From the NCBI GenBank assembly GCA_048938105.1, contig JBHLMN010000024.1, positions 1 to 64,000 on the forward strand: DNA of 64,000 nt. Reading direction: 5' to 3'. How positions within the stretch are numbered: position 1 is the first letter of the stretch; each line of letters begins with the position of its first letter. Shown piece after piece: positions 40,999 through 58,172 of this stretch. A program made the position numbers and the translations under genes. Under the pieces are notes generated by a model. The model had not been told where the DNA came from. It saw only the letters and a list, made by a program, of their open reading frames with translations, and did not search any database. Source of the DNA: Promethearchaeota archaeon (GTDB taxonomy: Archaea; Asgardarchaeota; Heimdallarchaeia; Hodarchaeales; Hodarchaeaceae).

Positions 40999-41027
40999 TC
41001 TATAGTTCATAAGGTGGAAAAAAAGAA

Positions 41028-42335
41028 ATGTATTTTCGGGAATATATAAACAAACTTGAAAAAAACGGAAAAATTACAAGAATCAAGAAAGAAGTTAATA
41101 TAGATATAGAAGCTGCTGCTGTCTTAAAAGCAGCAGAACCTACTCCACTTCTGTTTGAGAATGTGAAGGGATATTCGGATTTTCAGGTTGCAGGTAATGT
41201 TTTTTGTACGAAAGAAAGCATTGCTGATTATTTTGAGATTTCTACGGCACAATTGATTCCTCGACTCACAGCAGCTATTGATAATCGAAGTCCACCAGAG
41301 GAAATAAGTAGTGCTCCTTGTCAAGAAGTTATTATGGATGGTGTTGACCTCGATAAAATTCCAATTCTAAAACATAATGAACGAGACGGTGGTCGATACA
41401 TCTCTTCAGCTGTTGTCGTGACCAAAGATCCAGAATTTGGTCAAAACTTAGATTTTCACCGGGCAATGCAATTCGAGAAAAACAGAATGAGTACTCGGAT
41501 CATAAAGGGTCGGGATTTCTACAAGTTTTTAGAGAAATCAGGTGAAGTAGAAGCAGCTTATTGTGTTGGAAACACCCCTAATATCCTTGTTGCTGCTGCC
41601 ACTTCCGTGAAGACAGGAATTAATGAGCTAGAAATTGCAAATGCCCTTGCAAAAACTGAAGTGATAAAAGCTAGCTCAGTTGATCTTTTAATCCCTGCAG
41701 GATGTGAAGTAGTTTTAGAAGGAAAAGTTTTCATGGCTGATCGTGCATCAGAAGGGCCATTCATCGACTTAACCGAAACATACGACATAGAGCGCGATGA
41801 ACCAGTCTTTGAGGTTAAAAAAATCACTCATAGAAAGAACCCTATATGGCAAGCACTTGTGCCTGGCGCTTTAGAACACAAAGTCCTTATGGGTATGCCA
41901 CGAGAACCCACTATCTTTAAATCTGTGAATGAGGCAGGTGTAAAGTGTCTTGATGTCAATGTAAACCCTGGTGGTTCCTCTTGGCTACATGCCATTGTTA
42001 AAATCGATAAACAAAATGAAGACGATGGAGAAAAGGCTATACGCGCTGCTTTTGCTGGACATAGAAGCTGTAAGCATGTCTTTGTCGTGGATAAAGATAT
42101 TGATATATATAACCCCTTAGAGGTAGAATGGTCAATGGCTACACGCTTTCAGGCTGAAAGAGACTTAGTTGACATTGGAAAGGAGCCAGGGTCAAGCCTA
42201 GACCCAAGCGCAGAACCAGGAACAAAAATCACAAACAAAGTAGGATTCGATTTTACTGCACCACTAGTGACAAAAGGGAAAAGCTTTGCCCGTGCAGAGT
42301 TTCCTGAAGTCGATTTAAAGGAGTATTTAGAATAA
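41028..42335 (+). CDS. UbiD-family decarboxylase (anhydromevalonate phosphate decarboxylase)
   Basis: EGPFIDLT, VDKDIDI, SSLDPS; context with mvk, PMDh, ubiX and fni. Confidence 0.88.
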   Translation: MYFREYINKLEKNGKITRIKKEVNIDIEAAAVLKAAEPTPLLFENVKGYSDFQVAGNVFCTKESIADYFEISTAQLIPRLTAAIDNRSPPEEISSAPCQEVIMDGVDLDKIPILKHNERDGGRYISSAVVVTKDPEFGQNLDFHRAMQFEKNRMSTRIIKGRDFYKFLEKSGEVEAAYCVGNTPNILVAAATSVKTGINELEIANALAKTEVIKASSVDLLIPAGCEVVLEGKVFMADRASEGPFIDLTETYDIERDEPVFEVKKITHRKNPIWQALVPGALEHKVLMGMPREPTIFKSVNEAGVKCLDVNVNPGGSSWLHAIVKIDKQNEDDGEKAIRAAFAGHRSCKHVFVVDKDIDIYNPLEVEWSMATRFQAERDLVDIGKEPGSSLDPSAEPGTKITNKVGFDFTAPLVTKGKSFARAEFPEVDLKEYLE

Positions 42336-42715
42336 TAAGGAGGTTAAAACAGCAGTAATATTAATCTAATTCCTCCAGCTGGGTGTAATTAAAAATTATA
42401 TCATGGTTTCTCTGTAGTTTTTATCAACAGCCCCTAGTTGCACAAATTATTCTCCATTCGCTTTTGGGTATAGCTGCAATGATTATTCTGCTTTTCCAGA
42501 GGTCAGGCTTGTCAAACAAATCTAAGACGACAGGATGAAAAATTCAAACTCACTCCCTCAAAATGTGGATATATTTTGGGTTTAGAAAAATAAGTTTTTG
42601 ATTTATTGAAAATCTAGTGACTTTTATCCGAAAGATTCTTAACTTCGTGAGACACGAGAAACTTAAATTCAGCCTCACACTTCTTAAGACAATAGATTCA
42701 TGGTATTGAGCCATA

Positions 42716-43576
42716 TTGCAAATCCAACATATGATTTCAAAACCCGCAATTGGGAAATCGCTTAATCAAGATTGTATCGGTGCAAGTGAGACTGGAATCT
42801 GGCTTCTTGATGGCATTTCGGAAGTTAGAAATCTATCAATAAAAAATGATGAAAATGCTGTTTTTTGGTTTGTAAATAGAATCAATGCGTATCTATCGCA
42901 ATATCTTGATTATCACGACCTCACAATAACTGAAATTCTAATAGCTGCTATTAAGGAAATTAAAGAGGAGATCACATCTCTTATTACTGTTGATATTAAT
43001 TCTTTACAATACAATGAACACCCCTCTGCTTCTATTATAATTGCTCGAAATATCCAAGATGAAAAACTTGAGATTTTTTCTTTAGGAGATTGTCTGGCAT
43101 ATCTTCGGACATCAAACCAAGAGATATTAATTCAAAACCATGAATTAAAAAGAATTGAAGAGCAATTTCGAGACAAAATTCTCCAAAAAAAGAAAACTTA
43201 TCCCCAAATGAGTCACAAAGATTTTTTAGCCAAAATAAAGATAATTGAGAGGTTGAAATACCTTCGAGATGACCTTTATCAAAACGACAAGTATAATGTC
43301 CTAAATTTAGACTCTGTTATGATTAGTAAAGGACAATTATCAGTTTATCAATCCATTAATACAATCCTATTATTGAGTGACGGATTTTCACGTGTAATTG
43401 ATACTTATCATCTGTTCAAAGATTATAATGACTTACTTGTGAACCTAAAGGAGCAGGGAGTAGAACAAATATATGAAACTATGCGTGAGATTGAACAGCG
43501 TGACCAGAATGTCCAACAATTTCCCCGTTTAAGAGTATCAGATGATGCTTCTTTGATCCTAGCCTTTCTTGAATAA
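42716..43576 (+). CDS. PP2C-like (PPM) phosphatase domain protein
   Basis: NQD...LLDG, LGDC, LLSDGF, DDAS metal-binding Asp motifs. Confidence 0.8.
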   Translation: MQIQHMISKPAIGKSLNQDCIGASETGIWLLDGISEVRNLSIKNDENAVFWFVNRINAYLSQYLDYHDLTITEILIAAIKEIKEEITSLITVDINSLQYNEHPSASIIIARNIQDEKLEIFSLGDCLAYLRTSNQEILIQNHELKRIEEQFRDKILQKKKTYPQMSHKDFLAKIKIIERLKYLRDDLYQNDKYNVLNLDSVMISKGQLSVYQSINTILLLSDGFSRVIDTYHLFKDYNDLLVNLKEQGVEQIYETMREIEQRDQNVQQFPRLRVSDDASLILAFLE

Positions 43577-43646
43577 CCCCCTAAGTAATTCTGTTCTCTA
43601 AAATTTTGAAATTATAAAGGACTCCCTCAATCGAATATAGAGATTC

Positions 43647-44648
43647 TTGAAGTTGAGTTTTATGAGTGAACTTTTACCTGAGATCCATCAATATAAAAAA
43701 ATTATGGCGAATTTGGACAAATCTTTTGTTGAAAAGGTTTTGAACTTTCTATCGGATGAAAATATCAAACATAAGGGGGGAGATTGGCTATACAAAACTA
43801 TTCACGCTAATACTGGCTGGGATTTCGTGTATTACTTCCCCAAACTTGCGATGATAATAAGAGATGATAAAACCATATTAAAAGTAATCAAAATTTTGTT
43901 AGAGAAGAAATCCTTTCCATCAAAGTTAAGGTTTTTTGCATATTACTTGCTTTACTCATTTCATCGGAATAACAAGGATTATTCAAAAGCAAAACAATTA
44001 GTAACAACCTATTTTGGGGAATTTCAAAATGAACCATTATTTCATGTAACTAGGGCAACCATTTTATTTTCCTCAACTGATCCTGACGAGTTAGAACAAG
44101 CTATAAGCATAAGCCTGGAATTAATTCATCATGAAGCCTTTCAGGAGAATGTAGGCATTTATCAGACTTTTGCAAATGCGGTCATTCTTGGAATTGAACA
44201 TGAAGTCGATTTAATTATTTCCAATAAATCTAAATATATGAACCAAGCATTAAAGCTGATTCAGAAAGCACTTACTCAGAAAAAATATGCTAAGTATTAT
44301 TTCACCCTTGGAATATTATTTTTTTATTCAGGTCAAGAAACCAAGAATATAACTAGTTTTAGGAAAGCTAAGCGAGCTATTCAACGAGCGATTGATGTAG
44401 AAGATTCCACTCGCAAAGATTATCCTTTGCGTTTGCTCGAATATCACAGCTATCTCGCGAGAATCGAAATGTACTCTGATTATCTCAGAATACATCATTC
44501 CCTCCAAGAATTCTCGATCACTCTCAAAGAAAATGTGCTAGAACTTGCTCAACAAATTTCAACACAATTTGGAATATCCGTAAGTGATTATATTGAAAAT
44601 TTGGTAAAGATCGATACTGAACATCATCAGAGACATCATCAGCTTTGA
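43647..44648 (+). CDS. TPR-like helical protein with C-terminal RHH-like segment
   Basis: ALKLIQKAL..YAKYYFTLG..A...IQRAI repeats; C-terminal FSITLKENVLELAQQ...GISVSDYIENLV. Confidence 0.6.
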   Translation: MKLSFMSELLPEIHQYKKIMANLDKSFVEKVLNFLSDENIKHKGGDWLYKTIHANTGWDFVYYFPKLAMIIRDDKTILKVIKILLEKKSFPSKLRFFAYYLLYSFHRNNKDYSKAKQLVTTYFGEFQNEPLFHVTRATILFSSTDPDELEQAISISLELIHHEAFQENVGIYQTFANAVILGIEHEVDLIISNKSKYMNQALKLIQKALTQKKYAKYYFTLGILFFYSGQETKNITSFRKAKRAIQRAIDVEDSTRKDYPLRLLEYHSYLARIEMYSDYLRIHHSLQEFSITLKENVLELAQQISTQFGISVSDYIENLVKIDTEHHQRHHQL

Positions 44649-44851
44649 TTTGGTTCAGAAAAACTGGCACCAGATCGTTTAAAATTCTCATAGTAGATTA
44701 GACTACGCCTTATCGCATCTTCAACAAATTTTTTTTTGTCATTATTAAAATAGTTGCCAAGATCTGGATATTTGGTAAAAAGAGTCTCGATTGCAGCAGC
44801 CAATCCGTCATCTATCCGAGGTCTAAACTTTTTATCTTGAATTTGGCTCAT
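44639..44851 (-). CDS. Small ribbon-helix-helix regulator
   Basis: RPRIDDGLAAAIE...KKFVEDAIRRSL; AGGTGAGG RBS; divergent from the AAA ATPase. Confidence 0.7.
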   Translation of the reverse strand: MSQIQDKKFRPRIDDGLAAAIETLFTKYPDLGNYFNNDKKKFVEDAIRRSLIYYENFKRSGASFSEPNQS

Positions 44852-44895
44852 TACCTCACCTAAATCTGATTAGATTCTGTTTCCACTTTCTATAG

Positions 44896-44980
44896 ATGGG
44901 CTATATAAGGGATATGAAATCCCGAGAATGGGATATGTTTATATAATGGGATAACCAATCCCATAAATGGGATATCTTTG
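44896..44980. promoter_or_regulatory. Tandem 39-bp operator units over divergent TATA boxes
   Basis: GGGAT at 44909, 44930, 44948, 44969; ATCCC at 44919, 44958; TTTATATAA at 44938-44946. Confidence 0.7.
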
Positions 44981-45066
44981 GGTTGATATGTGATCTTTCT
45001 CACTAAAACAACTCATGTATTGTCCTAAAAACGAATATTAGCATCTTAATAGGAGAAATAGAATTT

Positions 45067-46362
45067 ATGGCACAATCAAAAGCAAATATCCCAAAAGCAA
45101 TATTTCAGGCACAAAAATTAGTCCAAGATGCGCGGTTGTATGATCATCAAGACCAATACCAGAAAGCAATTACTTATTACATGCATGCAACCAAAATATT
45201 CTTAGTACTACTGAAACGATACCCTCAGATACCCCTCCATAAGCAGCATGCTCAAGAGGTTCGACTGTGTCTGCAACGGGTACAACAACTTAAACCAATT
45301 TTAATGAATTCCACACAATCAGCCAATCATCCCAAGACAGTACATATCAAATCAAAAGATGACCAAGAGTATGCTGAATTACGTGAGCGTATCCTTAGAT
45401 GTCGGATCACTCCTAATCCTAGTCTCTCATGGGATGATATAATTGGTCTCGAAGAAGTTATCCACCAGATTCAGGAAACAGTCTTAGTCCCTCTTCAGCA
45501 TCCCGAAATCTGGGAGAGTAGTATCAAACCATCCAGATCAATTCTCTTATTTGGGCCGCCTGGATGTGGGAAAACAAACTTAATTCGGGTACTAGCGGCA
45601 GAAATTGCCCCTATACCTATCTTCAGTCCTCCAGCTGGGATTCTATTATCAAAATGGCATGGGGAAAGCCAGAAAATGATCCGGGCGTTGTATGAAACAG
45701 CTTGGGAACATGCCCCCTCGATCATTTTCATTGATGAATTTGATGGCATCTTTGGGTCAACCAACAATTCCCGAAGAAGAAATGGGGATTCAGAGGCATC
45801 TAGAATAACCATTCAGATCCAAAAGGAGCTACAACAGTTTATGGATGGATTATACACCCCTTCGAGGAATGAAACAGTGACTATTGTCGCCACAAACTTC
45901 CCCCAGCGGTTACAACTTGCTCAATTACGTCGTTTCGATAGGATTCTGTATATTCCACCCCCGTCTCCTTCCGCGATTGTCAAGATTCTTCAGCATTACT
46001 TTCGAAAAGTATCTCATAATCTTGACGGCAATCTTCAATGGTTAGCACATCATGTTGTAAATAGGTATACCCCTGATGAAATACAAAAAATTTGTACTGG
46101 AGCCTATTATCAGGCACTTAGTAGGTCAGACAAGACTAAGCTCCCCCCACAAGTAACTTTGAAGGACGTTGCGCATTGTAAGGTAAGATTAAAACCTTTA
46201 CTTCGATTTAAAGAAACTATTGGGGTGAGTACAATATTGTTTAGGATATGGAATGAGACCTTTGGGAGACCACCAATTGAATATCCAATGCAGCCTTGGG
46301 AAGAAGAAGATGTAAACCCCACTTTGTTGCTTAATCTGCAAAAGGCTCGAGAAAATCGCTAG
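45067..46362 (+). CDS. MIT-domain Vps4-like AAA+ ATPase
   Basis: MIT three-helix N-terminus (ARLYD...YQKAITYY...QRVQQLK), WDDIIGLEE, GPPGCGKT, SKWHGES pore loop, IFIDEFD, ATN..LRRFD. Confidence 0.85.
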   Translation: MAQSKANIPKAIFQAQKLVQDARLYDHQDQYQKAITYYMHATKIFLVLLKRYPQIPLHKQHAQEVRLCLQRVQQLKPILMNSTQSANHPKTVHIKSKDDQEYAELRERILRCRITPNPSLSWDDIIGLEEVIHQIQETVLVPLQHPEIWESSIKPSRSILLFGPPGCGKTNLIRVLAAEIAPIPIFSPPAGILLSKWHGESQKMIRALYETAWEHAPSIIFIDEFDGIFGSTNNSRRRNGDSEASRITIQIQKELQQFMDGLYTPSRNETVTIVATNFPQRLQLAQLRRFDRILYIPPPSPSAIVKILQHYFRKVSHNLDGNLQWLAHHVVNRYTPDEIQKICTGAYYQALSRSDKTKLPPQVTLKDVAHCKVRLKPLLRFKETIGVSTILFRIWNETFGRPPIEYPMQPWEEEDVNPTLLLNLQKARENR

Positions 46363-46373
46363 GGGGAAGGGGA

Positions 46374-49300
46374 ATGTCTACACAGGAAGATCACGATGTT
46401 ATTCTTGCTCAACAAGAAGAAGAAAAGATAGAAGAAGAGGTGGAAGATAATGAAGAAGAAACTAACCTTGAAGAGGATCCTTCAGAGATTGATATTGATG
46501 AGGTGGCTCCAAGAATAGAAGTGGAGGAGCTGCTTGCAGAGCATGAAATGCTTGAACAAGAGTTCGAGGAATTTTTACCTCCTGATACTATTCTTACTTC
46601 TGAAGAGGAAGGAACGGAAGTAGAAGACTTTGATGAGGACATTGATGATAATTCAGCGGATACTATATGTATAGGCCAAGATACATTGGTTCTAGAGGCA
46701 AAATTTGAGGTTCAAGAGGCGGAGGACGAGGAGCTAGAGACTTATGAACTAATAGAAACTGAGCAGGAAATCCAAGACGAAGAGCCAGATTCGTCAGACC
46801 AACAAGAAGTGGACATAAGTCTCGGGAATGACATTTGTGGAGAGGTTGAGGAAGATTCATCAATTTTAGAGGAAGATCAGGAAATTGAGTTTTCCAACAT
46901 CAATCAAAATATAGAGGAACTGCCAATTGAAGTAGAAGAAGCTGAATTAGAAATACATCAATTGGAAGAAGAGCTAGAAGAAGAGCTGATAACAGAATAG
47001 GTCAAGGTTATTGAAGATGAAGGGATCGAGGAATTTGAGGACATAAAACATCTAGAAGAAAGTCAGATAGAAGAAAATGATAATTTTGGTGATACAGATT
47101 GGGAATATGAAACATTAGAGGAGCAAGATCTTTGTAATCAGGAAACACTGGATAGTGATACCACAAATTCTACTTCAATTGAAGCAATGGAACACGAAGA
47201 AACGAAAATTGATCAGGAATTAGAAGAAAATCCATTAATTACTCTTGAATACCCGTTTGCTGAAGAATTAAAAGAGCAAGATAAATATACGCAAGAAATA
47301 ACATGTGATCAGGAATTTGAGGAAATATCCATTAATGAACTTGAAAATCAAACTGAAGACGGTAGTGAGGAACTAGAAGAGCTGGAAAAAACAATTGAAA
47401 TAGATGAGAACGTTGCAACACTTGAAACAGTCGAAATCACAAATGATGTGCAACCAGAAGATGAGAAACAATCTCAACAATCTATTACACTGACAAAAGG
47501 GCATACACTAAGTGATATTGGGAAAACTTCAATCCAGCAATTATTCAATATACTCAATAATCGATCTATAGAAACAAAGTATTCTGAGGATGTTCTTAAA
47601 CCGCGATCCTTTACTCTGACAATCAAAGATGAGGATTTTCACGATTTTTCTCTTAATTCACTAGATACCGAAATAAGCACCTTAGAGAAAATGTTGAAAG
47701 AAGTTGAATCACCACGCTTGTTAACCCAATTTCATCCACAGATAGAGGATGATGTAAAGCAATCTCTTGAGGTTCAAACGTTTCAAAGTATTCATGAACA
47801 TGATAGTTCATTAGAACTTGTTTCTCAAGGCCCCTCACTTCCCGAACCGCCTCCATATGATTTTCAAGCTGAATTGGACGAACTAGAGGAAGAACAGGAT
47901 AGTTTAACAAGAGAACAACTTCTAAAATCGTTTGAAAGGGCGCAATGGACACAAATGACTGCTAATTTAGATTTAGCAAAGCAGAAATTATCTTTCATAA
48001 AAGCATACACATCACATACTCCAAAAGCAGACCCTCCTCAAAAAATGACACAGACCTTTCAGAACAAGCAGATCTCCCGAAATAAAGCAGATACAGAAGA
48101 ACAGATCAAAAAAGAAAAAACTGAATCAAATTTAGAGAAAAAAAATTATTTTAAACCTCTAGAAGAAACACTAATAGAACAAAATATTGAAAGGAAAAGA
48201 CAATCGATAATACAAACTGGGTATAAAGCCATAAAAACTGGAAAACATTCAGATTTGAGAGTGTTTGCAAGAAAGTGGAATGAACACATAACCAGAGGAG
48301 GAAGGCCAACAACTAAAATGTGGGAAATGTATAACAAGATACAGGAGAAGTACGATAAACCAATAGTCTTATACAAAGAAAGTGGAAATAATACCTATCG
48401 AATGAGCATATGTGGAAAATTATTTTCTCAATTAGATTCAGGTAACATATCAGCGAGACAAATTAACAAAATATTTGAATATTGGCAAATTCAAAGTGAT
48501 ATGAAAAAGGGAATTAAACCTTTTTTGGAAGTAACAATAAAAAATCCCACAACTGGAAAAACGGATACGTTTTGGATTCCAAATTCTAAACAAAAGGCAT
48601 GGAACCCATATAAAGCAAAGAATCGTGAGTTTTTCAATATTCGTAGTTCTTCTTGGGCTAAAATCACAGAATTCCTAGCAACTAAGATTCAATTAAATGA
48701 GAAGGACATAAAATTATATAATGAGATTGAGAAATCTCTTAGAAAAAGATACCCAAAACTGGGGATTCAAACAGTTAATGGACCTTTTACGACTTTGGGG
48801 AATCAAAAAGTACTGTTTAAAAATATATATAAGTTGAATTACCCAAAAGACGTTATAGATGAAGCAATTAAACTAGCTTTTTGGAAATACGCTGGTACTC
48901 ATGCTTATAATGATACAAACACTGTTACTTCAAGAAAAGAAATTACACAGATGAGAATAGAATTCTCTAATTTTGGAAATTCAATTCAAAAAAACAAGAT
49001 AACTCAAAGAATATACAACTTGAGTGTGGACGGTTCAGTCTCACATCAGAATTGGACTGATGATCTCGAATCATCAATTAAAAGTTTAGATCCAAATTTT
49101 ATTATATATGAAAATGTTAATGGCGAGATTAATGGAATATCTGCCCCACATCTAGTCAGAAAGTTCAAGGATTTATTATTCTTTAAAGATAAGTATTCTG
49201 TAAAGAGTGCTGGTAGAATGTTCAATAATCTGATAGCATTAGCAGATTACGAACCACCATTAAATTTAGGTACTTATTATTGGAAAAAATTGTTTCCTAA

Positions 49301-50792
49301 AAATACTGATCTTCATCAATTAGGAATTCCAGAAGCTTATCAAACAACGTTTATATATCGTGATACAACCTCATCGGGGGCAGTTGGTAGGGCAAGATGG
49401 ATGAATGACTTTCGAAATGAATTTTTGATGCCATTAACTGATTGGCTTAAAGTTTCCGAACTAAAAGACTTTTCTAAGCAAATTACCATTCAAAATCCTA
49501 GTACAGGAAAGAAATATAGAAAACGGTTCAATAATTTGAGTGCATATTTGAAATTTCAAGCAGGACTTGGTGAATGGAAAGATGAAAGATGGCAAGGTGT
49601 GTATAATAAAATATACGTTCTAAAATATGATCTTGAGCACATTTTGGCTATTACTAAATATGTCAGTGAATCAGTTCAGTTACCTGGAAGAGATAATAGA
49701 ACTGGAAAAGATAAGGAGAAGTTATTGGAATTCTTTCAAACGACTAATGCGGTAAAAATCATAAATATTGTACCTGAATCTAAAAATTTCAAATTCATTG
49801 TAAGTTTGAGTTCTAGAAAACAAGCATTAATGAAATTCTATAATAATCTTACTAAAAATAGTTCAGTTGGGGCAAAAATTGTCCAAGCACACCTTACATC
49901 TGTTCTGGAGAGTTGCATACCATTAACTATAGATCCATGGACAATACAAAAAGCAGTAAATCACAAACACTTAATAAAGGCACCTGAAAGTCTTGCGGAA
50001 TTATTAACTGAAGAAGGTGACGGCCCGATAAATCCATTCTGTTCTGGCCTTTTTATGGATTCGAATTTTAGAGAAATTTGTAATACCGTTCATGATATCA
50101 ATTTTAACATGAAATTTCTTCAGTATCCTAATACTGAGAGAGATTATATCATAACCCAATCAATGAAATCAAGGAAAATGGCTGATACTTATGGAGAATC
50201 TTTTACTGCAGCAAGTATTCCTGATGTTGTAACAAGTTATCAAAAAAATAGTGGTTCTACCGAATTGTTATTTATAAAAGTTGTAAGTAATAATATTTTT
50301 AATCATTTAGAATCTGATATTAGTGAAATATTAAAGACTAATTATGATTCAAAAGATCCTTTTCGAATTTTCACTGCATTAGTTTTTTTAAAATCAGATC
50401 TGAATACTCTCCCACTGAATTCTACAAAATACAATGAATTAATGCTTCTACTTCAAAATCAAAATGCAGATGGATTAATTAATATTGAAATACCAGATTT
50501 ACAAACAAAAGGATTAAATCGTTTTGGTGAAATATGGGCATCTCTCAAAAATGAATACATAACAAATGAAATATATGAGGAATCCAGAAATGAATTTTTG
50601 AAAGATCCTGATTCCTTTAAAAATCAATTAATCGAGGAAGTAATGAAAAAAATCAATAGTTTCCAAAAACTCAATCCTGTTGACCGTAAAACGGTAGAAG
50701 AAGGGCTTGAAATAATAGATTTTGAAGCAACTACAAGAACAGAGTTTATTATGAACACTCTAATGAATTATTTCAGTCTTGCTTTACTTTGA
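46374..50792 (+). CDS. Giant acidic-N-terminus protein (1472 codons) interrupted by one in-frame TAG at 46998-47000; nuclease-like C-terminal motifs
   Basis: ORFs 46374-47000 and 47187-50792 share a frame; the 62 codons between them are open and equally Glu/Asp-rich. Confidence 0.7.
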
Positions 50793-50910
50793 ATAAAAGG
50801 GAGAGAAGTAGTTTATATATACCAATCAATAAATAGATACATTAATTTCTTATTTGTATATTATTTTCATAAGCGAAAATAAAGAGAATTGAACAACTGG
50901 AGGAACGAAA

Positions 50911-52092
50911 ATGGAATTAACCCCCGAAGAGCAAGATATGGCTGCTGGGAAGTATGGAAAGGCTACACAAACAGCGATGGAAATATTAGTCTCACTTGGC
51001 GAGATTTATGGAGCTAAACGAATGATAGACATAACTTCGGTTCAAATTGCTGGTGTAAGTTATGCAAACTTAAATGAACCTGGCCTAGAATGGTTGGAAG
51101 AAATGGCTGAAGATGGAAAAGTACGGGTATTTACCACACTTAATCCAGCAGGTATGGATCTTGAAGAATGGAAAAAATTAGCCATCAGTGAGGAGTTTGC
51201 TGAAAATCAAATCCGGGTAGTAGAAGCATTCGGAAAATTAGGAGTTATAACAACTTGCAGCTGTACTCCATATCTTTACGGGAATCTACCTCATTTTGGC
51301 CAACACATTGCTTGGTCTGAGAGTAGTGCTGTGTGTTATGCAAACTCAGTATTAGGTGCACGAACGAATCGAGAAGGTGGACCAAGTGCTCTTAGTGCAG
51401 CTCTTGTCGGAAGAACACCTGAATATGGTTTTCACTTAGATGAAAACAGAAAACCAGAAGTAAAAGTAGATGTGAAAACAAAACTTGAAGGAACATTTCA
51501 ATTTGGAGCTTTAGGAAAAGTCTTAGGGGATCGTCTCGGTAAAAAGATTTCTTATATTACCGGAATTCCCAAAGCTTCGGTTGAGGAGCTAAAATCATTT
51601 TGTGCATCATATGCAACATATGGGGGAGTAGCATTATTCCATATGGAAGGCATTACGCCTGATCGAGTTGACACAATTCCTTCTGAAACCACAGAAGTCA
51701 CTGAAGATGATATGAAAAGCGCTATTGCAGATCTTACTGAAGATACAGAGATTGATTTCATAAGTTTAGGATGTCCACATGCTTCTCTAGCGGAATTGGA
51801 ATATATTGCTAAAAAATTAGAGAATAAGAAAGTTAATCCTAACAAAGAGATATGGATAACAACAGCTCGACCTACTAAACAAATCGCAGATCGTATGGGT
51901 TTTACTAAAATGATTGAAGATTCCGGAGCAAAAGTTGCTGCAGATACCTGCTGTGTTGTAGCTCCCATTAAAGGACGATTCCATGGATTAGCATCAGACT
52001 CAGCTAAAATGTGCTATTATGGATCTGGTAGGAATAAATTCTCAGTCAAACTGATGTCAGTAGATGAATGTATAGAGGAGGCCTTAAAATGA
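50911..52092 (+). CDS. Phosphomevalonate dehydratase large subunit (AcnX catalytic domain)
   Basis: AGVSY, TTLNPAGMD, CSCTPY, WSESSA, GARTNREGG, LGCPHAS, DTC, SDSAK. Confidence 0.92.
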   Translation: MELTPEEQDMAAGKYGKATQTAMEILVSLGEIYGAKRMIDITSVQIAGVSYANLNEPGLEWLEEMAEDGKVRVFTTLNPAGMDLEEWKKLAISEEFAENQIRVVEAFGKLGVITTCSCTPYLYGNLPHFGQHIAWSESSAVCYANSVLGARTNREGGPSALSAALVGRTPEYGFHLDENRKPEVKVDVKTKLEGTFQFGALGKVLGDRLGKKISYITGIPKASVEELKSFCASYATYGGVALFHMEGITPDRVDTIPSETTEVTEDDMKSAIADLTEDTEIDFISLGCPHASLAELEYIAKKLENKKVNPNKEIWITTARPTKQIADRMGFTKMIEDSGAKVAADTCCVVAPIKGRFHGLASDSAKMCYYGSGRNKFSVKLMSVDECIEEALK

Positions 52093-52478
52093 AGCTAACA
52101 GGTAGAAAAATTTACCACGGAAAGACTGAAGGGGAAGCTCTAGTTACTAAAGACAGTATCTCGTTTTATGGCGGAGTAGACCCAGAAACAGGGATAGTAG
52201 TCGAAAAGGGTCATGAATTAGAAGGTGTGAACACTACAGATAAAATACTTGTGTTTCCAACAGGTAAAGGGTCAACGGTTGGCTCCTATGTAATCTATCA
52301 AATGGCAAAAACAGGAAAAGGGCCTAAAGCCCTTATCCTTCAAGAATGCGAAGCAATTGTAGCTGTTGGTTGCATAATCTCATCGATCCCTTGTGTGGAT
52401 CAGATTGATGTAACCCAGATCAAAACAGGAATGAATCTGACCGTGGATGGCGATAAAGGCGAAGTTGTGATAAAATAA
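52089..52478 (+). CDS. Phosphomevalonate dehydratase small subunit (AcnX swivel domain, DUF126)
   Basis: ISFYGGVDPETG, GKGSTVGSY; ATG at 52089 next to the large-subunit stop. Confidence 0.92.
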   Translation: MKLTGRKIYHGKTEGEALVTKDSISFYGGVDPETGIVVEKGHELEGVNTTDKILVFPTGKGSTVGSYVIYQMAKTGKGPKALILQECEAIVAVGCIISSIPCVDQIDVTQIKTGMNLTVDGDKGEVVIK

Positions 52479-52527
52479 TCTATAATAATCACTCTTTTTT
52501 TTTCGTATTATTTGTTTATTAAAGCCT

Positions 52528-55500
52528 TTAGCCCTTTTCTTCTTTATCACTCCATAATACATCTAACACCCGACAAATATCTATCAATCTCCAATTTTCA
52601 TACGTTAGAGCTTTTCCTTTCATAAGACCCAGAGTACTTCTATTTGTTGATGGAAAAATATCTCGTAATATATTCTTAAAATCATCTGAATCAGAGAATT
52701 CTTTCATTAGTCTTATTACTTCGATGTATTTTGCGCTCTTGTTAATATTTTTGTGTTCAATTTCAATAATTTTGTTTTCCCAGAATGATAGCCTGTTCTC
52801 CCGAAACAACGCTTCTGGAATACTTGTCTTAAAGATCGAACGATTTAATAAATCATCATCCCACTTTCCTCTATATTTTGTCCCTATTAAAAGTCGCCTT
52901 AATCCCTCCGTTGTGAATATTTCAGTAATTTCATTAGGTCTTTTTATTTGTAAATCAAACTCCAAATTGTTTCTCTTTCTTGGATGGGTTTTTTTAAGCC
53001 CTATAAGGTTCATCTCCTTTATATCAACTGATCTTTCAACAAATAAACACCTTAATTCTTGCAATTCTCTCATTCTAAATAAATAAATAGACGATTTACC
53101 AAGTAGAGCATTATAATAAATACTTCCCCCTTGTCTCACTCCCTTTACGGGAATAAATGTTTTGGGATCATCTTGTGTAAAGCTCTTATTAAAACTTGTA
53201 ATATTGGGATTGAAATGAAAAAATAGAAACATCCCAAATAAAGTTTGACCATGATTCATTTGATCCCAATTCAGTCCTTTTCTAGCATTTGAAATTAATA
53301 ATTTAGAGGAAGGAGAAAAAGAACCCTTAACTCTCCTATTCGCTTTTTGTCTTTCTATTCTTACAGAGGGTCTTTTAATCTCCCATAACGTAGCTTTATA
53401 ATCATAATCCCCATAAGCTTCTGAAGATGGGGAAATTACCATCCCATCAACACCCTGACCGTGTTCTCCTCCCAAATATAAACCATATACATATGAAAAC
53501 AACGAAATTTCTCGTGGTGTTCTAGAATGAAAAACAAAGTATTTTTTATTTGAATTTCTAGACATTACCTTTTTTTTTTGACCAGTGTTACCCCAATTTA
53601 CGCTAGAACCTTTTTTAAACCATTTGGATGCCATAGCAACTGATTTTTCCTCTGGGAATCCAATAATTCTGAATAATGAATAAATTGTTGGAATATAAGC
53701 TGCCCTAAGTCTCAAGTCATTTGTCATCCTTTTATTCGAATGCCACTTCCTAAATAATTTGCTACCATGATTAACATCTTCAGGAGCAGCTGCATATTCA
53801 AAAACATTGATTTTTAATTGGTTAATATTCCGTAATGTGTCAATTGGGTTATTGAAATATAATCTTGCACTTTCAGGGAAAACATCTTTTGAAATTCTAG
53901 GAATTCCACTGAGTTCTCTAGACCTCCACCGTTCACCTACATCAATCTGTGTGGTTAAATTGTTAAAAGAACATAAAAACATCGATGTTAATGTGACTGT
54001 TTTCATCAATATATCTGTGTGTGCTGATTCAGGAAAATGGTTTAATGGTTTACTTGGAGAGAGCCATAAATTTCTTCCAATATTATAAATCTCTTGAGTA
54101 ATAGCCAAAAATCTTGGATCATTTGCATCCATCAGATAATCGACAGCTAAAGATGCAATGCGTGATACAACATTTACAGATAACTCTAAGTTAGCCTTTG
54201 ATAAAGCATTTTTCTCTGCCTTTCCAAACTGTAGTGCACCTCTATCATGCCTTCCTTCAATATCTGCGAATAATTCACCAAATTTTGTTTTAATTTTTTC
54301 CCTCATATTTCGCCTATCTATTCTCCCATCAATTATCACGCTTGGTGGTTTAATATTTAAAACGTCAAGAAATCCACCCTTTTTTGTAATTTCTTTGATC
54401 TTTTCTTTCTCTAATAGTCTTATAAGATTAATCATTGAAAGAAATCTTTCAGTAGTTCTTATTTCCAATAATGAATCTGTTATTTCTTTGAATTTTGTAA
54501 AACTGAATGTCTCAAATACTTTATTGAGTAAATGATTATTAACAAAACTCTTGATTGACATATTGGGGGAGATATTGATGTTTGGTTGAATAAATTCATT
54601 ATGATAAGAACTAAACTCTAAAGACTTTGAAAACTTATAAAGTGTTGATAAATTAGTATCAACGATAGAACGTATTCCTGTTGAACCTTTAGTTGTACCT
54701 ATTAACACTTTAATATCAATAAAAGGAGATTTAAGTATGTATTCTAATCTCTCTAGATATTTCTCATTTTCTAGCGTGAGTTTTCTTTGAGAATCAAAAA
54801 CTCGAATCAACTCTGATCTAACATCGTTGTGAATTGGTGATAAAACACCATTAATTCCTAAATCTTCCAAACTAGTTATTACTTCGCCAATTGAAGATTT
54901 TTCTGTATCCACCAAAAGAAACAATCGAATGATATCATATTCCCTTTTAACCAGTTCATTTAATTCCCAATTTTTCAATAGATGAACATTGTCGATATGT
55001 CTTTCTCTTCTCACTGATATCATTGTTAAAGCTTCATTGATATTCTTGGTTGCCTCATCTATAAGGTTGAAAGTCTGTTGAAAACTCATCAGATCATTAT
55101 TTTCAAGATCTTCGTAGAAGTTAACACTAAATTTGTTGTTAAATTCTTTTTCTCTTAATACAACCTCTATTGCAATTCTTTTTGATCTATTTACACTCTT
55201 TGAGTCGGAATTCGTGAGTTTTGTGAACAGTTGTCCTTCAAGACTCTCCATGTCATTAAAATTAAAGAAGAGCGTCTTTACGGAATCTTCTCTTGATTGA
55301 TTCTTTTGTAATAGCTTAAACAACTGTTGATCTTTGTTTTTCATTTTGATTTTCTGTTCTTTTTCAAGTTGTTCAACAGATTTCTCGTTAGCAGCTTGTT
55401 GTGAATTTTCAAGTGACACAAGTTGTTGTAGTGTTCTTTCCTTTATGGACTCTTGGAACTGTGTTTCGTTTTCAGCAGACACGGGCTGTTGGGATATGTG

Positions 55501-55659
55501 GTTAGAACGTTCGATATTCCCATTTAGATCTTGCTGGATTAGTGTGGTTTCTTCTCTCTTTTGGAGATCAAGGTTTACCTCCTGACACCTCTCAATCTCT
55601 TTGATTTTTATTGTTTCTTTTGTTGGCTTTGAATAATGCTCTTTCTCTATTTTTGATTC
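52528..55659 (-). CDS. Orphan alternative C-terminal cassette of the giant protein, with a PD-(D/E)xK-like motif
   Basis: Frame is open upstream of GTG 55482 up to the junction motif ESKIEKEHYSKPTKETIKIKEIER (55659-55588); GQGVDG...LWEIK. Confidence 0.65.
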   Translation of the reverse strand, partial: ESKIEKEHYSKPTKETIKIKEIERCQEVNLDLQKREETTLIQQDLNGNIERSNHISQQPVSAENETQFQESIKERTLQQLVSLENSQQAANEKSVEQLEKEQKIKMKNKDQQLFKLLQKNQSREDSVKTLFFNFNDMESLEGQLFTKLTNSDSKSVNRSKRIAIEVVLREKEFNNKFSVNFYEDLENNDLMSFQQTFNLIDEATKNINEALTMISVRRERHIDNVHLLKNWELNELVKREYDIIRLFLLVDTEKSSIGEVITSLEDLGINGVLSPIHNDVRSELIRVFDSQRKLTLENEKYLERLEYILKSPFIDIKVLIGTTKGSTGIRSIVDTNLSTLYKFSKSLEFSSYHNEFIQPNINISPNMSIKSFVNNHLLNKVFETFSFTKFKEITDSLLEIRTTERFLSMINLIRLLEKEKIKEITKKGGFLDVLNIKPPSVIIDGRIDRRNMREKIKTKFGELFADIEGRHDRGALQFGKAEKNALSKANLELSVNVVSRIASLAVDYLMDANDPRFLAITQEIYNIGRNLWLSPSKPLNHFPESAHTDILMKTVTLTSMFLCSFNNLTTQIDVGERWRSRELSGIPRISKDVFPESARLYFNNPIDTLRNINQLKINVFEYAAAPEDVNHGSKLFRKWHSNKRMTNDLRLRAAYIPTIYSLFRIIGFPEEKSVAMASKWFKKGSSVNWGNTGQKKKVMSRNSNKKYFVFHSRTPREISLFSYVYGLYLGGEHGQGVDGMVISPSSEAYGDYDYKATLWEIKRPSVRIERQKANRRVKGSFSPSSKLLISNARKGLNWDQMNHGQTLFGMFLFFHFNPNITSFNKSFTQDDPKTFIPVKGVRQGGSIYYNALLGKSSIYLFRMRELQELRCLFVERSVDIKEMNLIGLKKTHPRKRNNLEFDLQIKRPNEITEIFTTEGLRRLLIGTKYRGKWDDDLLNRSIFKTSIPEALFRENRLSFWENKIIEIEHKNINKSAKYIEVIRLMKEFSDSDDFKNILRDIFPSTNRSTLGLMKGKALTYENWRLIDICRVLDVLWSDKEEKG

Positions 55660-55660
55660 A

Positions 55661-56024
55661 CGCCCATTTTCCTGAATGTTTTTACTACACGAAGTTGGTT
55701 TTTCCCGAATTCCTCACTGATGGCTAATTTTTTTCCATTCTTCAAGATCCATTCTGTACCAAAGTCAATAGACTAAGATTTTCCAGCAGGATTAAGAATG
55801 GTAAAAATTCGTACTTTACCATCAATAGCCATTTCAGCTAACCATTCTAGGCCTGGTTCATTTAAGTTTGCATAACTTACACCTGCAATCTGAACCGAAG
55901 TTATGTCTATCAAGCGCTTAGCACCGTATATCTCACCAAGCGCGACTAATATTTCCATAGCTTTTTGTGTGGCTTTTCCATATTTCCCTGCTGCCATATC
56001 TTGTTCTTCAGGAGTTTGTTCCAT
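55661..56024 (-). pseudogene. Inverted 5' fragment of the PMDh large subunit (~110 codons) with a 29-nt insertion and +1 frameshift
   Basis: MEQTPEEQDMAAGKYGKATQ...NPAG [insert] MDLEEWKK/LAISEEFGKNQLRVVKTFRKMGV matches the 50911 gene. Confidence 0.9.
55752..55780 (-). other. Candidate BHB intron in a protein-coding sequence
   Basis: CTGG-AA|A-ATCTTAGTC-TATT-GACTTTGGT-ACAG-AA|T; excision restores GCT GGA ATG GAT (AGMD). Confidence 0.6.
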
Positions 56025-56262
56025 TTTCTTTATCTACTTATTTTCTTGAATCTATTTTATTTAATTTAAGTTGGAGAAAATGACGAATTAATTTATTTAT
56101 CTATTGGTATTTTCTGATAGTGTAAAGAAATATTAGCTTTAATGACCCTTTTCTAAAAGGAGTATATACAAAAATTATATCTAGAATGATGTTTACAATA
56201 GAATAACGAAATAAATATTAAAATAAAAAGGAATACTACGTTATAGTGACATTAGTGTAATA

Positions 56263-56367
56263 ATAATAAGCAAAATTCCCTGTGTAGATCAAATTGATAC
56301 AACTAAAATAACAACTGGATCGAAAATAGTCCTAGATGCCAGCACTGGCGTGGTTGAAGTAGAATAG
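56263..56367 (+). pseudogene. 3' remnant of a PMDh small subunit gene
   Basis: IISKIPCVDQIDTTKITTGSKIVLDASTGVVEVE*, 18/34 identical to the C-terminus of the 52089 protein; directly upstream of ubiX. Confidence 0.85.
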
Positions 56368-56459
56368 ATCGGAAATTTCATCTTCAACTAATCACCATTT
56401 CCTCCTTTTTCACAAGATAATAGGAAAAGCTGGTAATATTATTGAAGGTGTGAAATCTT

Positions 56460-57032
56460 GTGAAGCCAAAGAAAATAATTGTCGGGTTAACTGGTGCTTC
56501 TGGAATACAATACGGAATCGAAGTTATCAAAGCCTTGGTAGAAAGTAAAATCGAAACTCATGTTATTTTGAGTAAATGGGCAGAATTTGTACTTCAAGAT
56601 GAAGTGGGTATTAAAAGCTCAGAAATTAAAAAAATGGCTTTTCAAGCATATAATAGTAAAGAGATGAATGCACCTCTTTCTAGTAGCTCAACATTGATAG
56701 ATGGAATGGTAGTTATACCAGCTACAGTGAAAACAGTAAGTAATATCGCTACTGCGAATACTGGAAATTTGATCTCCCGAGCAGCAGACATAATGCTGAA
56801 AATGCGACGACCGTTGATCATTGGAATCCGTGAGACTCCTCTAAGCCCACCTTGCCTTCATAATCTGTCCCAGTTAGCTATTTATGGGGCAATTATTCTT
56901 CCGTTAAGTCCAGGATTCTATCATAAACCTCAAAATATTCAGGATTTGTTTGATTTTATAACTGGGAAAGTTTTAGATTGTTTAAATGTTCCAAATGAAA
57001 AATATCGACGTTGGAACAAAAAGGAGCCTTAA
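56460..57032 (+). CDS. ubiX: Flavin prenyltransferase UbiX
   Basis: GLTGASG, NLISRAAD, RETPL, PGFYHKP. Confidence 0.92.
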   Translation: MKPKKIIVGLTGASGIQYGIEVIKALVESKIETHVILSKWAEFVLQDEVGIKSSEIKKMAFQAYNSKEMNAPLSSSSTLIDGMVVIPATVKTVSNIATANTGNLISRAADIMLKMRRPLIIGIRETPLSPPCLHNLSQLAIYGAIILPLSPGFYHKPQNIQDLFDFITGKVLDCLNVPNEKYRRWNKKEP

Positions 57033-57038
57033 AAAGAC

Positions 57039-58172
57039 ATGGAAACGGAGTATAAGGTTGTTAAAGATATCCTTGAGAAAAAGGCCAATTTAACCTCTGA
57101 CAGAAAGTTAGCGCATATCCAAATCTGCTTGGAACACGACGTTCAAGCCCGAAACACTACAACAGGTCTGGAAGACATTTCTTTTGTTCATCATGCAACA
57201 ACTGATTTGAATCTTGATGAAATTGATTTATCGGTCAAGATTTTTAATAAAAAACTCTCTGTTCCCTTAATCATTTCAGGGATGACTGGAGGCCATGATT
57301 TTGCCCATAAGCTGAATGCTTTCTTATCTCAAGCAGTTAATCAAACCAATATTGGTATGGGAGTCGGTAGTCAGCGGGCAGCGTTAGAAAATGAAGAAGT
57401 GAAAGAATCTTTTAACGTTGTCAGAGAACATGCTCCCGACTCATTAATTATTGGAAATATCGGAGCAGGCCAAATAGCTCAAGGGCTTACTAATGTTCAA
57501 TTCCAAGAAATCATCAATATGATTAACGCTGATGCTGTTGCGGTGCATTTTAATCCCCTTCAGGAGGCGATCCAACCTGAAGGTGACACCCAATTAAGAG
57601 GCCTGCATGAAAAAATTGAACAAATAATACACGAACATTCAGTCCCCCTAATTGCCAAGGAGGTGGGCTCAGGGTTTAGTCTTCACGATATTAAGCAAGC
57701 CAAGAAGATGGGGTTCAAAGCAATTGATATTCAAGGAGCTGGAGGAACCTCGTGGGCTGGAGTGGAAGCCATTCGGACACTTATACCGAAGTATAAGGAC
57801 GCTGGTGAAGTTTTCTGGGATTGGGGAGTCCAAACAGCTCTCAGTACAATATTAGCTACAAAGAATTTTGAGGGAATCATCATTGGTTCGGGTGGGATAA
57901 GAAATGGATTAGATATTGCGAAATTAATTGCCTTGGGAGCAGATGCAGCAGGGATGGCTATTCCATTTTTATTTGCAGTTCAGAAACACTCTACAGAGGC
58001 AGTTGTGCAGAAAATTGAAGAGATAACCTATCAGCTAAAATTGGCTTGTTTTCTTACTGGTTCTCAGAATGTCTTAGATTTAAAAAAAGCCCCTCTTGTA
58101 ATTACTGGGAAAACAGCCGAACTTCTGAAACTCCATGGAGTCGATCCCTCAACCTATTATTCTAGAGAATAA
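57039..58172 (+). CDS. fni: Type 2 isopentenyl-diphosphate delta-isomerase
   Basis: RKLAHI, SGMTGG, GVGSQR, HFNPLQE..QPEGD, KEVGSG, GAGGTSW. Confidence 0.95.
   Translation: METEYKVVKDILEKKANLTSDRKLAHIQICLEHDVQARNTTTGLEDISFVHHATTDLNLDEIDLSVKIFNKKLSVPLIISGMTGGHDFAHKLNAFLSQAVNQTNIGMGVGSQRAALENEEVKESFNVVREHAPDSLIIGNIGAGQIAQGLTNVQFQEIINMINADAVAVHFNPLQEAIQPEGDTQLRGLHEKIEQIIHEHSVPLIAKEVGSGFSLHDIKQAKKMGFKAIDIQGAGGTSWAGVEAIRTLIPKYKDAGEVFWDWGVQTALSTILATKNFEGIIIGSGGIRNGLDIAKLIALGADAAGMAIPFLFAVQKHSTEAVVQKIEEITYQLKLACFLTGSQNVLDLKKAPLVITGKTAELLKLHGVDPSTYYSRE

What the first reader, a model, noticed from the sequence alone, without database searches (positions are those of the whole stretch)
44639..55659. 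Candidate new system: Vps4-like MIT-AAA ATPase coupled to a giant acidic protein with exchangeable nuclease-like C-termini
Seen: an RHH gene is divergent from a tight operon (11-bp gap) of a MIT-domain Vps4-like ATPase and a 1472-codon protein. That protein has a very acidic N-terminus, a Pro-rich motif, a junction motif, and a basic C-terminal region with nuclease-like motifs. A second, unrelated ~1000-aa C-terminal region starting at the same junction motif lies nearby without its own N-terminus. Known: a constant N-terminus with variable C-termini and orphan C-terminal cassettes is the hallmark of polymorphic toxin loci, and Vps4 normally works with ESCRT-III, none of which is encoded here. 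Inference: a Vps4 paralogue repurposed to unfold, export or activate a polymorphic nuclease effector, for conflict or anti-virus defence.
Basis: partly seen in the sequence, partly recalled or inferred. Interest (0 to 1): 0.9.

Follow-up and report, generated by a model that had tools for sequence, protein, structure and literature searches.

The report
Vps4-like ATPase with modular giant partner
In one genus of Asgard (Hodarchaeales) archaea, a fast-evolving extra copy of the membrane-remodelling ATPase Vps4 is always encoded next to a giant protein with a hyper-acidic head, a Vps4-docking-type proline motif and swappable tails. This gives these "partnerless" Vps4 copies a likely substrate, but what the tails do is still unknown.

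Summary
A MIT+AAA ATPase (45067-46362) lies 11 bp upstream of a 1472-codon frame, but that frame is broken by an amber codon (46998-47000; CAG in the closest relative). The genome has no pyrrolysine machinery.

All 8 intact members of this ATPase clade that I examined are followed directly by a 950-1500-residue protein. It has three parts:
- an acidic head (net charge about -90 to -150);
- a conserved block, LELVSQxPxLPEPPPYDF, which fits the archaeal MIM2 pattern;
- an unrelated tail.

Heads, a new ~280-residue core domain and at least seven tail types are shuffled between genomes. Tails are closer in synonymous distance (dS 0.36-0.40) than the flanking UbiD gene (dS 1.0-1.1).

The "orphan cassette" (52528-55659, minus strand) is a 5'-truncated copy of a third tail type that is full-length in other genomes. 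It starts at a 75-nt relic of the junction motif and abuts a duplicated AcnX 5' fragment.

Not supported: any nuclease or toxin fold, secretion, immunity genes, or the RHH label. The scan found this module before on other DNA (e1-5416733, e1-5416725), and my tests agree. The literature I searched notes only the partnerless ATPase paralogues.

The parts
44639..44851 (-). Its identity is unverified and it is not a conserved part of the module.
   Evidence: No hit in Pfam, NCBIfam, PHROGs or PDB sequences. BLAST found no homologue in the other 11 loci compared or elsewhere in the genome.
44909..44979 (.). Two 32-nt direct repeat units spaced 39 nt apart, in the divergent intergenic region.
   Evidence: Family D5, 78% identity; sequence read. 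Function not tested.
45067..46362 (+). Accessory Vps4-like ATPase (431 aa). It has a MIT domain (aa 14-76) and one AAA cassette (aa 159-297), with Walker A GPPGCGKT, Walker B IIFIDEFD and pore loop KWHGES.
   Evidence: (best NCBIfam match CdvC, 159 bits, far under its cut-off). It falls in the clade of diverged paralogues.
46374..47000 (+). First 208 codons of the giant gene (42% D+E), ending at an in-frame amber codon.
   Evidence: It is homologous to the N-termini of P0008, P0028 and the G012 gene, which read on without a stop.
46998..47000 (+). TAG nonsense codon. The G012 orthologue has CAG (Gln) here, and P0028 also has Q.
   Evidence: No PylS in the genome, and TAG ends 551 long ORFs.
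47001..50792 (+). Rest of the giant frame (1263 codons). An ATG at 47187 gives a 1201-aa ORF that keeps the motif block, junction, core and tail A.
47784..47933 (+). Conserved block shared by all ATPase-linked giants. The MIM2-like core GPSLPEPPPYDF lies at 47829-47864.
   Evidence: Alignments. The pattern fits CdvB MIM2 (RELLPELPHPP) and the consensus quoted in PMC5840170.
48123..48194 (+). Junction motif (ESNLEKKNYFKPLEETLIEQNIER) just before the core domain.
48141..49043 (+). Core domain of about 280-300 aa, basic (pI 9.9), with invariant Trp and Asn residues. No match in Pfam, PADLOC, PHROGs or NCBIfam.
   Evidence: Alignment A1. 32 cluster representatives among 1.84 billion proteins. AF2 pLDDT is mostly 80-95 over model residues 20-150 and 180-250. 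No convincing fold match.
49044..50789 (+). Tail type A (about 580 aa). It is shared with P0004, P0005 and P0006.
   Evidence: dN/dS is 0.25 against P0004's gene. No family or fold match.
50911..52478 (+). AcnX large (50911-52092) and small (52068-52478) subunit genes. They give context and are one arm of the inverted repeat.
   Evidence: Pfam AcnX E 5e-151 and AcnX_swivel E 2e-34.
52528..55659 (-). 5'-truncated giant of tail type B. It equals P0010 from about residue 128 onward. The first start codon is GTG 55482, and a relic of the junction motif lies at 55588-55659.
   Evidence: dN/dS is 0.31 against P0010's gene.
55660..56031 (-). Duplicated 5' fragment of AcnX (about 115 codons). It has a 29-nt insert and a 1-nt frameshift, and it abuts ORF B.
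   Evidence: Inverted repeats I1, I2 and I5. 90% aa identity over 81 residues. Alignment.

Best explanation
The locus is one copy of a two-gene module confined, as far as sampled, to one Hodarchaeales genus. The module pairs a diverged Vps4 paralogue (MIT + AAA) with a dedicated giant partner protein.

The partner has a disordered, hyper-acidic head of about 500 residues. Next comes an invariant MIM2-type proline block, and then a folded, neutral-to-basic body that is exchanged by recombination (often a new core domain plus one of several large tails).

Most likely (inferred, not shown), the ATPase docks with its MIT domain on the proline block. It then threads or remodels the partner, starting with the adjacent acidic head, and so switches the body's activity on or off. 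Patchy occurrence, several copies per genome, mosaic structure, recent exchange and frequent knock-outs point to an accessory role, probably in genetic conflict.

In this window the giant gene carries a Gln-to-amber mutation at codon 209. At best a 1201-residue product from ATG 47187 is made. The second large frame is a truncated relic of a paralogue (tail type B), left by a rearrangement whose breakpoints lie in the junction motif and in AcnX.
For: Shown:
- Accessory ATPases form one clade (98/98) separate from the housekeeping Vps4. The clade was found in 7 of 399 genomes of the phylum, all in one genus.
- All 8 intact clade members are followed directly by a giant ORF.
- These giants share only the block [LI]xL[VI]SQxPxLPEPPPYDF. 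It fits the MIM2 consensus and CdvB's LPELPHPP (PMC5840170).
- Ten giants with the other head type lack the motif. The five of them whose context I examined have no ATPase next door.
- Heads carry net charge -92 to -152, bodies have pI 6.3-9.6, and no transmembrane segment is present.
- The ATPase keeps Walker A and B, the Vps4-type pore loop and the arginine fingers.
- Mosaicism is clear. Two head types combine with the same bodies (core+A, core+C, F), and at least seven tail types exist.
- Body dS is 0.36-0.40 against 1.0-1.1 for the adjacent UbiD, and dN/dS is 0.25-0.31.
- There are three independent N-terminal knock-outs: TAG here, a frameshift in G012 and TAA in L021.
- Makarova et al. 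2024 noted diverged Hodarchaeota Vps4 paralogues without ESCRT neighbours (PMC11188069).
Against: - MIT-motif binding is not demonstrated.
- The MIT match is 1 bit under Pfam's cut-off.
- One motif-bearing giant (P0008) has no ATPase beside it on its 7.7-kb contig.
- No tail has an identified fold or activity, so 'effector' and 'conflict' are inferences.
- dN/dS well below 1 shows constraint, not diversifying selection.
- All genomes are metagenome bins of one genus, so the 8 pairs are not independent.
- The amber codon is seen in the assembly and in a contig of its probable source run only.
Confidence: 0.55

Rival explanations
1. One reading: a polymorphic nuclease toxin system. The Vps4 paralogue unfolds, exports or activates the giant effector, and the nearby frame is a stored alternative toxin cassette.
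For: - Giants have variable tails on shared N-terminal parts.
- The orphan frame begins exactly at a shared junction motif.
- In L041 a fragment matching the last ~220 residues of the type E tail, plus a neighbouring 230-aa gene, is duplicated downstream of the giant.
- Tail type C carries a PD...QxK-like pattern, read by eye in the sequences.
Against: - No signal peptide, transmembrane segment or known trafficking domain is present.
- No toxin or nuclease family or fold was found for tails A or B.
- The tails are 400-900 residues long, which from general knowledge is far larger than typical toxin domains.
- No candidate immunity gene follows either tail in the window; AcnX follows.
- The orphan has full-length alleles at the same locus elsewhere and lies next to a gene-fragment scar.
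Confidence: 0.15
2. The pair is the core of a mobile element. The giant would be its mobility or replication enzyme and the ATPase its accessory factor, which would explain insertion at many sites.
For: - The pair sits in unrelated contexts: the mevalonate operon here and SRP19/FtsJ/TRM in L044, with other neighbours in L037-L042.
- It is absent from most congeners.
- Its dS is lower than that of the flanks.
- An earlier scan note reports a Vps4-like ATPase inside a decayed tRNA-Val islet (e1-1238423; not checked here).
Against: - No integrase, transposase, polymerase or primase signature was found in any giant.
- No flanking direct repeats surround the island here.
- The tails differ completely between copies, which is unexpected for a mobility enzyme.
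Confidence: 0.12
3. It is a cell-biological module, not a conflict system. The giants would be scaffold or chromatin-like or cytoskeleton-associated proteins that a specialised Vps4 paralogue disassembles, by analogy with spastin or katanin acting on acidic tubulin tails.
For: - The Vps4-type pore loop is present. From established knowledge, AAA ATPases of the Vps4/spastin/katanin group thread acidic, disordered tails.
- Purifying selection acts on the bodies.
- Small GTPase genes lie nearby in three loci.
Against: - The module is present in only about a third of congeneric genomes.
- The tails are unrelated to one another.
- Knock-outs are frequent.
- Exchange between lineages is recent.
Confidence: 0.13
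4. In this genome the giant gene and ORF B are dead pseudogenes, whatever the module does elsewhere.
For: - The amber codon falls where relatives have Gln, and there is no Pyl system.
- ORF B lacks its 5' end and has no start codon for 59 codons.
- Its upstream neighbour is a frameshifted gene fragment.
Against: - Both frames stay open for 1263 and 1061 codons after the lesions.
- dN/dS is 0.25-0.31 against relatives.
- The 1201-aa ORF keeps every conserved element.
- The ATPase is intact, with dN/dS 0.155.
Confidence: 0.35

Closest known systems
Vps4/CdvC with ESCRT-III/CdvB (MIT-MIM2 docking, pore threading)
   Same: - MIT + single AAA architecture.
- The Vps4-type pore loop and C-terminal helix motif.
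- The partner carries a PxLPxPP motif like CdvB's LPELPHPP, next to a disordered acidic segment.
   Different: - The partner is not an ESCRT-III fold. It is a 950-1500-residue modular protein.
- The motif is internal, not C-terminal.
- No ESCRT genes lie nearby.
- The ATPase forms its own fast-evolving clade.
Diverged Hodarchaeota Vps4 paralogues noted by Makarova et al. 2024 (PMC11188069)
   Same: Probably the same subfamily: outside the main Asgard Vps4 clade, in genomes that also hold a canonical Vps4, and without ESCRT neighbours.
   Different: In the passages I read, that paper names no partner. Here a conserved neighbour and a docking-type motif are identified. Identity of the three published sequences with this clade was not checked.
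Polymorphic toxin loci (CdiA-CT, Rhs, with orphan cassettes)
   Same: - Shared N-terminal parts with unrelated C-termini.
- A short conserved junction before the variable part.
- A displaced 5'-less copy nearby.
   Different: - No secretion apparatus or signal.
- No recognised toxin domain.
- No immunity gene.
- The tails are several-fold larger.
- The orphan is inverted and fused to a housekeeping-gene fragment.
Invertible C-terminus switches (phage Mu G segment, R64 shufflon)
   Same: A constant 5' part on one strand and an alternative 3' part on the other strand that starts at the same in-frame junction. Inversion within the motif would give an in-frame hybrid.
   Different: - The repeat is only about 75 nt at about 75% identity.
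- No invertase gene was seen.
- No inverted form was observed.

Membership tests
Vps4/CdvC ATPases | N-terminal MIT three-helix domain | tested here: inconclusive
   Pfam MIT E 1.2e-6, 29.0 bits against a gathering score of 30. VPS4B (7l9x) aligns from residue 2. The domain is conserved in 7 clade members.
Vps4/CdvC ATPases | Single AAA cassette with Walker A/B, pore loop 1 (KW.GES) and arginine fingers | tested here: met
   Pfam AAA E 6e-27. The motifs are visible in the alignment.
Vps4/CdvC ATPases | Groups with canonical Asgard Vps4 in a tree | tested here: not met
   It forms a separate long-branch clade (98/98), while canonical Vps4 forms its own clade (100/100). The NCBIfam CdvC score is 159 bits against a cut-off of 650.
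Vps4/CdvC ATPases | Encoded with ESCRT-III (Snf7-family) genes | tested here: not met
   No Snf7-family hit among the window neighbours scanned or among the neighbours of the other pairs.
MIM2 (MIT-interacting motif 2) | Proline-rich pattern phi-P-x-phi-P-x-x-P-phi-P (CdvB: LPELPHPP) | tested here: met
   The window has GPSLPEPPP. The pattern P-x-[LI]-P-x-P-P is kept in most of the 9 motif-bearing giants, with one substitution each in L038 and L039. Consensus taken from PMC5840170.
MIM2 (MIT-interacting motif 2) | Physical binding to the MIT domain | not testable with these tools
   Needs a binding assay or a solved complex.
Polymorphic toxin systems | Shared N-terminal region with unrelated C-terminal regions | tested here: met
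Polymorphic toxin systems | Secretion signal or trafficking domain | tested here: not met
   No Pfam domain. The maximum 19-residue hydropathy is 1.26 or less, and the N-termini are acidic.
Polymorphic toxin systems | C-terminal domain of a known toxin or nuclease fold | tested here: inconclusive
   No hit in Pfam, PADLOC, PHROGs, NCBIfam or PDB profiles. The model of tail A is poor and the model of tail B unusable.
Polymorphic toxin systems | Cognate immunity gene directly downstream | tested here: not met
   AcnX and AcnX-swivel follow tail A and face tail B. At type D and E loci conserved small neighbours exist, but their role is unknown.
Pyrrolysine (TAG) recoding | PylS present and TAG depleted as a stop codon | tested here: not met
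   The best PylS match scores 23 bits against a cut-off of 178. TAG ends 551 ORFs of 250 codons or more.

The most novel reading that the evidence does not exclude
This is a previously undescribed archaeal conflict system. A hyper-acidic head keeps a large exchangeable effector body silent. A dedicated Vps4 paralogue, docked on an internal MIM2 motif, strips or unfolds the head to fire the effector. Bodies are swapped between strains at a conserved junction. It would be the first case of ESCRT-type MIT-MIM recognition recruited outside membrane remodelling in the closest archaeal relatives of eukaryotes.
Probability: 0.25. Interest if true: 0.85.

Novelty: new variant of a known kind. Interest (0 to 1): 0.6.

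Why it matters
Hodarchaeales are among the closest known archaeal relatives of eukaryotes, and their ESCRT machinery is read as a forerunner of ours.

Published work left their diverged Vps4 copies without partner or function. A strictly linked partner with a MIM2-type motif turns that into a testable biochemical pair. It also shows that MIT-MIM recognition was reused for a non-ESCRT substrate.

The giants add a new domain family, a set of large tails with no known relatives, and a clear case of module shuffling in Asgard genomes. For this particular window, the value is mainly as a well-documented and partly decayed example.

Tried and rejected
- **Complex prediction.** Complex prediction of the MIT alignment (A2) with the motif-block alignment (A3) gave no verdict (score 0.07, mark 0.32). 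It counts neither way.
- **Structure of ORF B.** The AF2 model from 3 sequences had mean pLDDT 32 and is unusable.
- **Structure of core + tail A.** Only the core is confident.
- **Fold searches on that model.** Foldseek against PDB and BFVD, VIA-align wide and the ESM Atlas shape search gave only generic helical-bundle or sub-threshold rows. This does not show a new fold, because single domains were not folded separately.
- **ESM Atlas feature search.** Nothing usable for core+A. For ORF B the best scores were 0.83 or less, including restriction-endonuclease clusters at 0.79. That is below the level where such hits mean anything.
- **PDB profile searches.** Tails A, B and C gave nothing below E 0.1.
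- **Pyrrolysine reading of the TAG.** Rejected.
- **Independent check of the TAG.** Only contigs were available. The probable source run matches exactly. The second run's contig ends 22 nt after the TAG, and its differences are not listed. No RNA holder was listed. No joints, and so no inverted form, were seen in the contigs over 46300-48400.
- **Island ends.** No flanking direct repeats were found for an island at 42.2-56.6 kb.
- **RHH label.** No support in any library.
- **Contig C40.** Its Vps4-like gene with two TAA codons lies next to an ESCRT-III-like ORF and is unrelated to this module.

Full report
**What is in the window.**
ORF listing and translation show the layout below.

| Coordinates | Strand | Feature |
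|---|---|---|
| 45067-46362 | + | 431-aa ATPase: AAA (E 6e-27), MIT (E 1e-6, 29 bits vs cut-off 30) |
| 46374-50792 | + | giant frame, starting 11 nt after the ATPase |
| 50911-52478 | + | AcnX large and small subunit genes |
| 52528-55659 | - | long second frame (ORF B) |

The giant frame is not open. TAG at 46998-47000 splits it into 208 and 1263 codons, and the next ATG (47187) gives a 1201-aa ORF.

An inverted repeat of about 340 nt (84% identical; 50904-51245 vs 55660-56031) is a second copy of the first ~115 AcnX codons. It ends exactly where ORF B begins.

**The stop codon.**
The genome (5.85 Mb, 65 contigs) has no PylS: the best match scores 23 bits against a cut-off of 178. TAG ends 551 long ORFs, so TAG is an ordinary stop here.

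The closest orthologue (G012) has CAG at this codon, and P0028 also has Gln. The lesion is therefore a single C-to-T nonsense change. P0008 and P0028 read through the whole region as single proteins, so this was one gene.

Two relatives carry other early lesions. G012 has a frameshift near codon 101. The type B gene in L021 has GAA-to-TAA near codon 46.

Contigs of the probable source run match the TAG. An independent run was uninformative.

**The ATPase.**
Every one of 23 genomes in the order has a canonical Vps4 of about 385 aa that is about 31% identical to this protein.

A second group, 41-92% identical to it, occurs in 7 of 21 genomes of one genus. It was not found in the other 378 genomes of the phylum at E 1e-55.

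In a maximum-likelihood tree this group is one long-branched clade (98/98), apart from the tight canonical clade (100/100). It keeps the Walker motifs, the KW.GES pore loop and the arginine fingers.

Makarova et al. 2024 reported three diverged Hodarchaeota Vps4 paralogues with no ESCRT neighbours and called them a fast-evolving subfunctionalised subfamily (PMC11188069). In the passages I read, no partner was named.

**The partner.**
I fetched the DNA around six further clade members and one metagenomic contig. In all 8 intact cases the next gene on the same strand is a 950-1500-codon ORF. A ninth ATPase copy (G005) is a 273-aa fragment with no giant after it.

The giants share only a block of about 50 residues. 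Its core is [LI]xL[VI]SQxPxLPEPPPYDF. The window's GPSLPEPPP fits the MIM2 consensus and CdvB's RELLPELPHPP, as quoted in PMC5840170.

Upstream of the block, every giant has about 500 residues with net charge -92 to -152. Downstream, the bodies have pI 6.3-9.6. No transmembrane segment or signal is present.

Ten related giants with another head type (Q/E-rich helical repeats) lack the motif. The five whose context I examined have no ATPase next door. One motif-bearing giant (P0008) has no adjacent ATPase on its short contig. A near-identical frame lies in G007, which holds two such ATPases elsewhere.

**Mosaic structure.**
Pairwise comparisons show the following modules:
- Two head types: N1 carries the motif and N2 does not.
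- A junction motif.
- A core domain of about 280 residues with invariant Trp and Asn (A1). It has only 32 cluster representatives among 1.84 billion proteins.
- At least seven unrelated tails, A-G.

The same bodies occur on both head types:

| Body | On head N1 | On head N2 |
|---|---|---|
| core+A | the window | P0004 |
| core+C | P0008 | P0007, P0009 |
| tail F | L042 (ATPase-linked, motif-bearing head) | P0017 (with core) |

Tail synonymous distances to the nearest relatives are 0.36-0.40, against 1.0-1.1 for the adjacent UbiD gene in the same pairs. The bodies have therefore moved between lineages since the hosts diverged. dN/dS of 0.25-0.31 shows continued constraint.

**The orphan.**
ORF B has full-length relatives: P0010 (1142 aa, 78-83% identical depending on the aligned span) and P0011 (1069 aa, 50-56%). 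Both lie at the same chromosomal place in other genomes, convergent with the AcnX small-subunit gene as in the window.

The window's copy aligns from P0010 residue ~128 onward. It begins with a 75-nt patch homologous to the junction motif of core-type giants, which P0010 lacks at that position. It has no start codon until GTG 55482.

Upstream lies the AcnX fragment, which carries a 1-nt frameshift. The two AcnX 5' copies are only 84% identical, so they are not a recent duplication.

The simplest reading is a rearrangement with breakpoints in the junction motif and in AcnX, together with acquisition of a second AcnX-bearing segment. The exact history is not resolved.

An in-frame swap by inversion at the junction motif is geometrically possible. 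Nothing shows that it happens.

**What the tails are.**
No giant, from the window or from other loci, matches any Pfam, PADLOC, PHROGs or NCBIfam model. PDB profile searches found nothing.

AF2 gave a confident model only for the core. No library returned a convincing match. The ORF B model is unusable.

Tail C, which is not in this window, has a PD...QxK-like pattern that I did not test.

**Interpretation.**
The linkage, the motif and the architecture are shown. Docking of the MIT domain on the motif and threading of the acidic head are inferred, by analogy with Vps4-ESCRT-III and from the intact pore loop.

A conflict role is inferred from restricted and patchy occurrence, several copies per genome, shuffling, recent transfer and repeated knock-outs. 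Polymorphic-toxin membership fails on secretion and immunity, and is open on toxin identity.

The 'RHH' ORF is unverified and is not part of the conserved pair. The PP2C gene and the 333-aa gene are shared only with the closest relative, G012.

**Relation to earlier scan notes.**
Follow-ups on another genome (e1-5416733, e1-5416725) reached the same pairing and the same motif. I saw these only after my own tests, and they agree.

Noticed in passing
window 55752-55780; L010:12934-12959, L025, L021, L009, L024 at the same codon: AcnX in all five relatives, and in the window's fragment copy, carries a 29-37-nt insert right after the NPAG codons. It splits the gene call into pieces of about 85 and 310 aa. 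The window's intact AcnX (50911-52092) lacks it. The insert varies in sequence between genomes. It is a candidate mRNA intron or recoding site (see scan note e1-5542810).
   Followed up: partly
L041:14938-17368: Downstream of the type E giant lies a 230-aa minus-strand gene. Next comes a 270-aa fragment matching the last ~220 residues of the type E tail, and then a second copy of the 230-aa gene. This is a duplicated 'tail end + small gene' unit. None of these has a convincing Pfam match; the fragment gives only a sub-threshold CUE hit.
   Followed up: partly
L038:3187-4080 and L040:4570-5469: Both type D giants are followed by a WD40-like beta-propeller gene of about 300 aa (25% identical to each other).
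   Followed up: no
L009:346-834, L038:8730-9470, L044:1750-2274: Small GTPase genes (Ras/Roc, RagA/Gtr1-like, Arf-like) lie near three of the giant loci.
   Followed up: no
G000:C9:37044-38849 and 68972-71158 (L019, L015): The same genome holds two distant paralogues of the core domain (23-26% identity) in proteins of 600-730 aa. They have their own shared C-terminal region and lack an acidic head.
   Followed up: no
P0004, P0007, P0009, P0010 N-termini: The N2-type heads repeat an amphipathic helix, QFQxELDxIIxRL(E/D), 2-4 times. It is reminiscent of, but does not fit, the MIM1 consensus (D/E)xxLxxRLxxL(K/R).
   Followed up: no
window 40057-58172 vs L010, L021, L025, L045: The stretch between the UbiD-type decarboxylase and the AcnX/flavoprotein genes of the mevalonate cluster holds a different giant, in either orientation, in each genome. 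It behaves as a hotspot for these genes.
   Followed up: partly
G000:C40:3936-6042: A 6.8-kb contig holds a third Vps4-like gene, for which genome search reported two in-frame TAA codons, beside an ESCRT-III-like ORF. The bin has 7% estimated contamination, so it may belong to another organism.
   Followed up: partly
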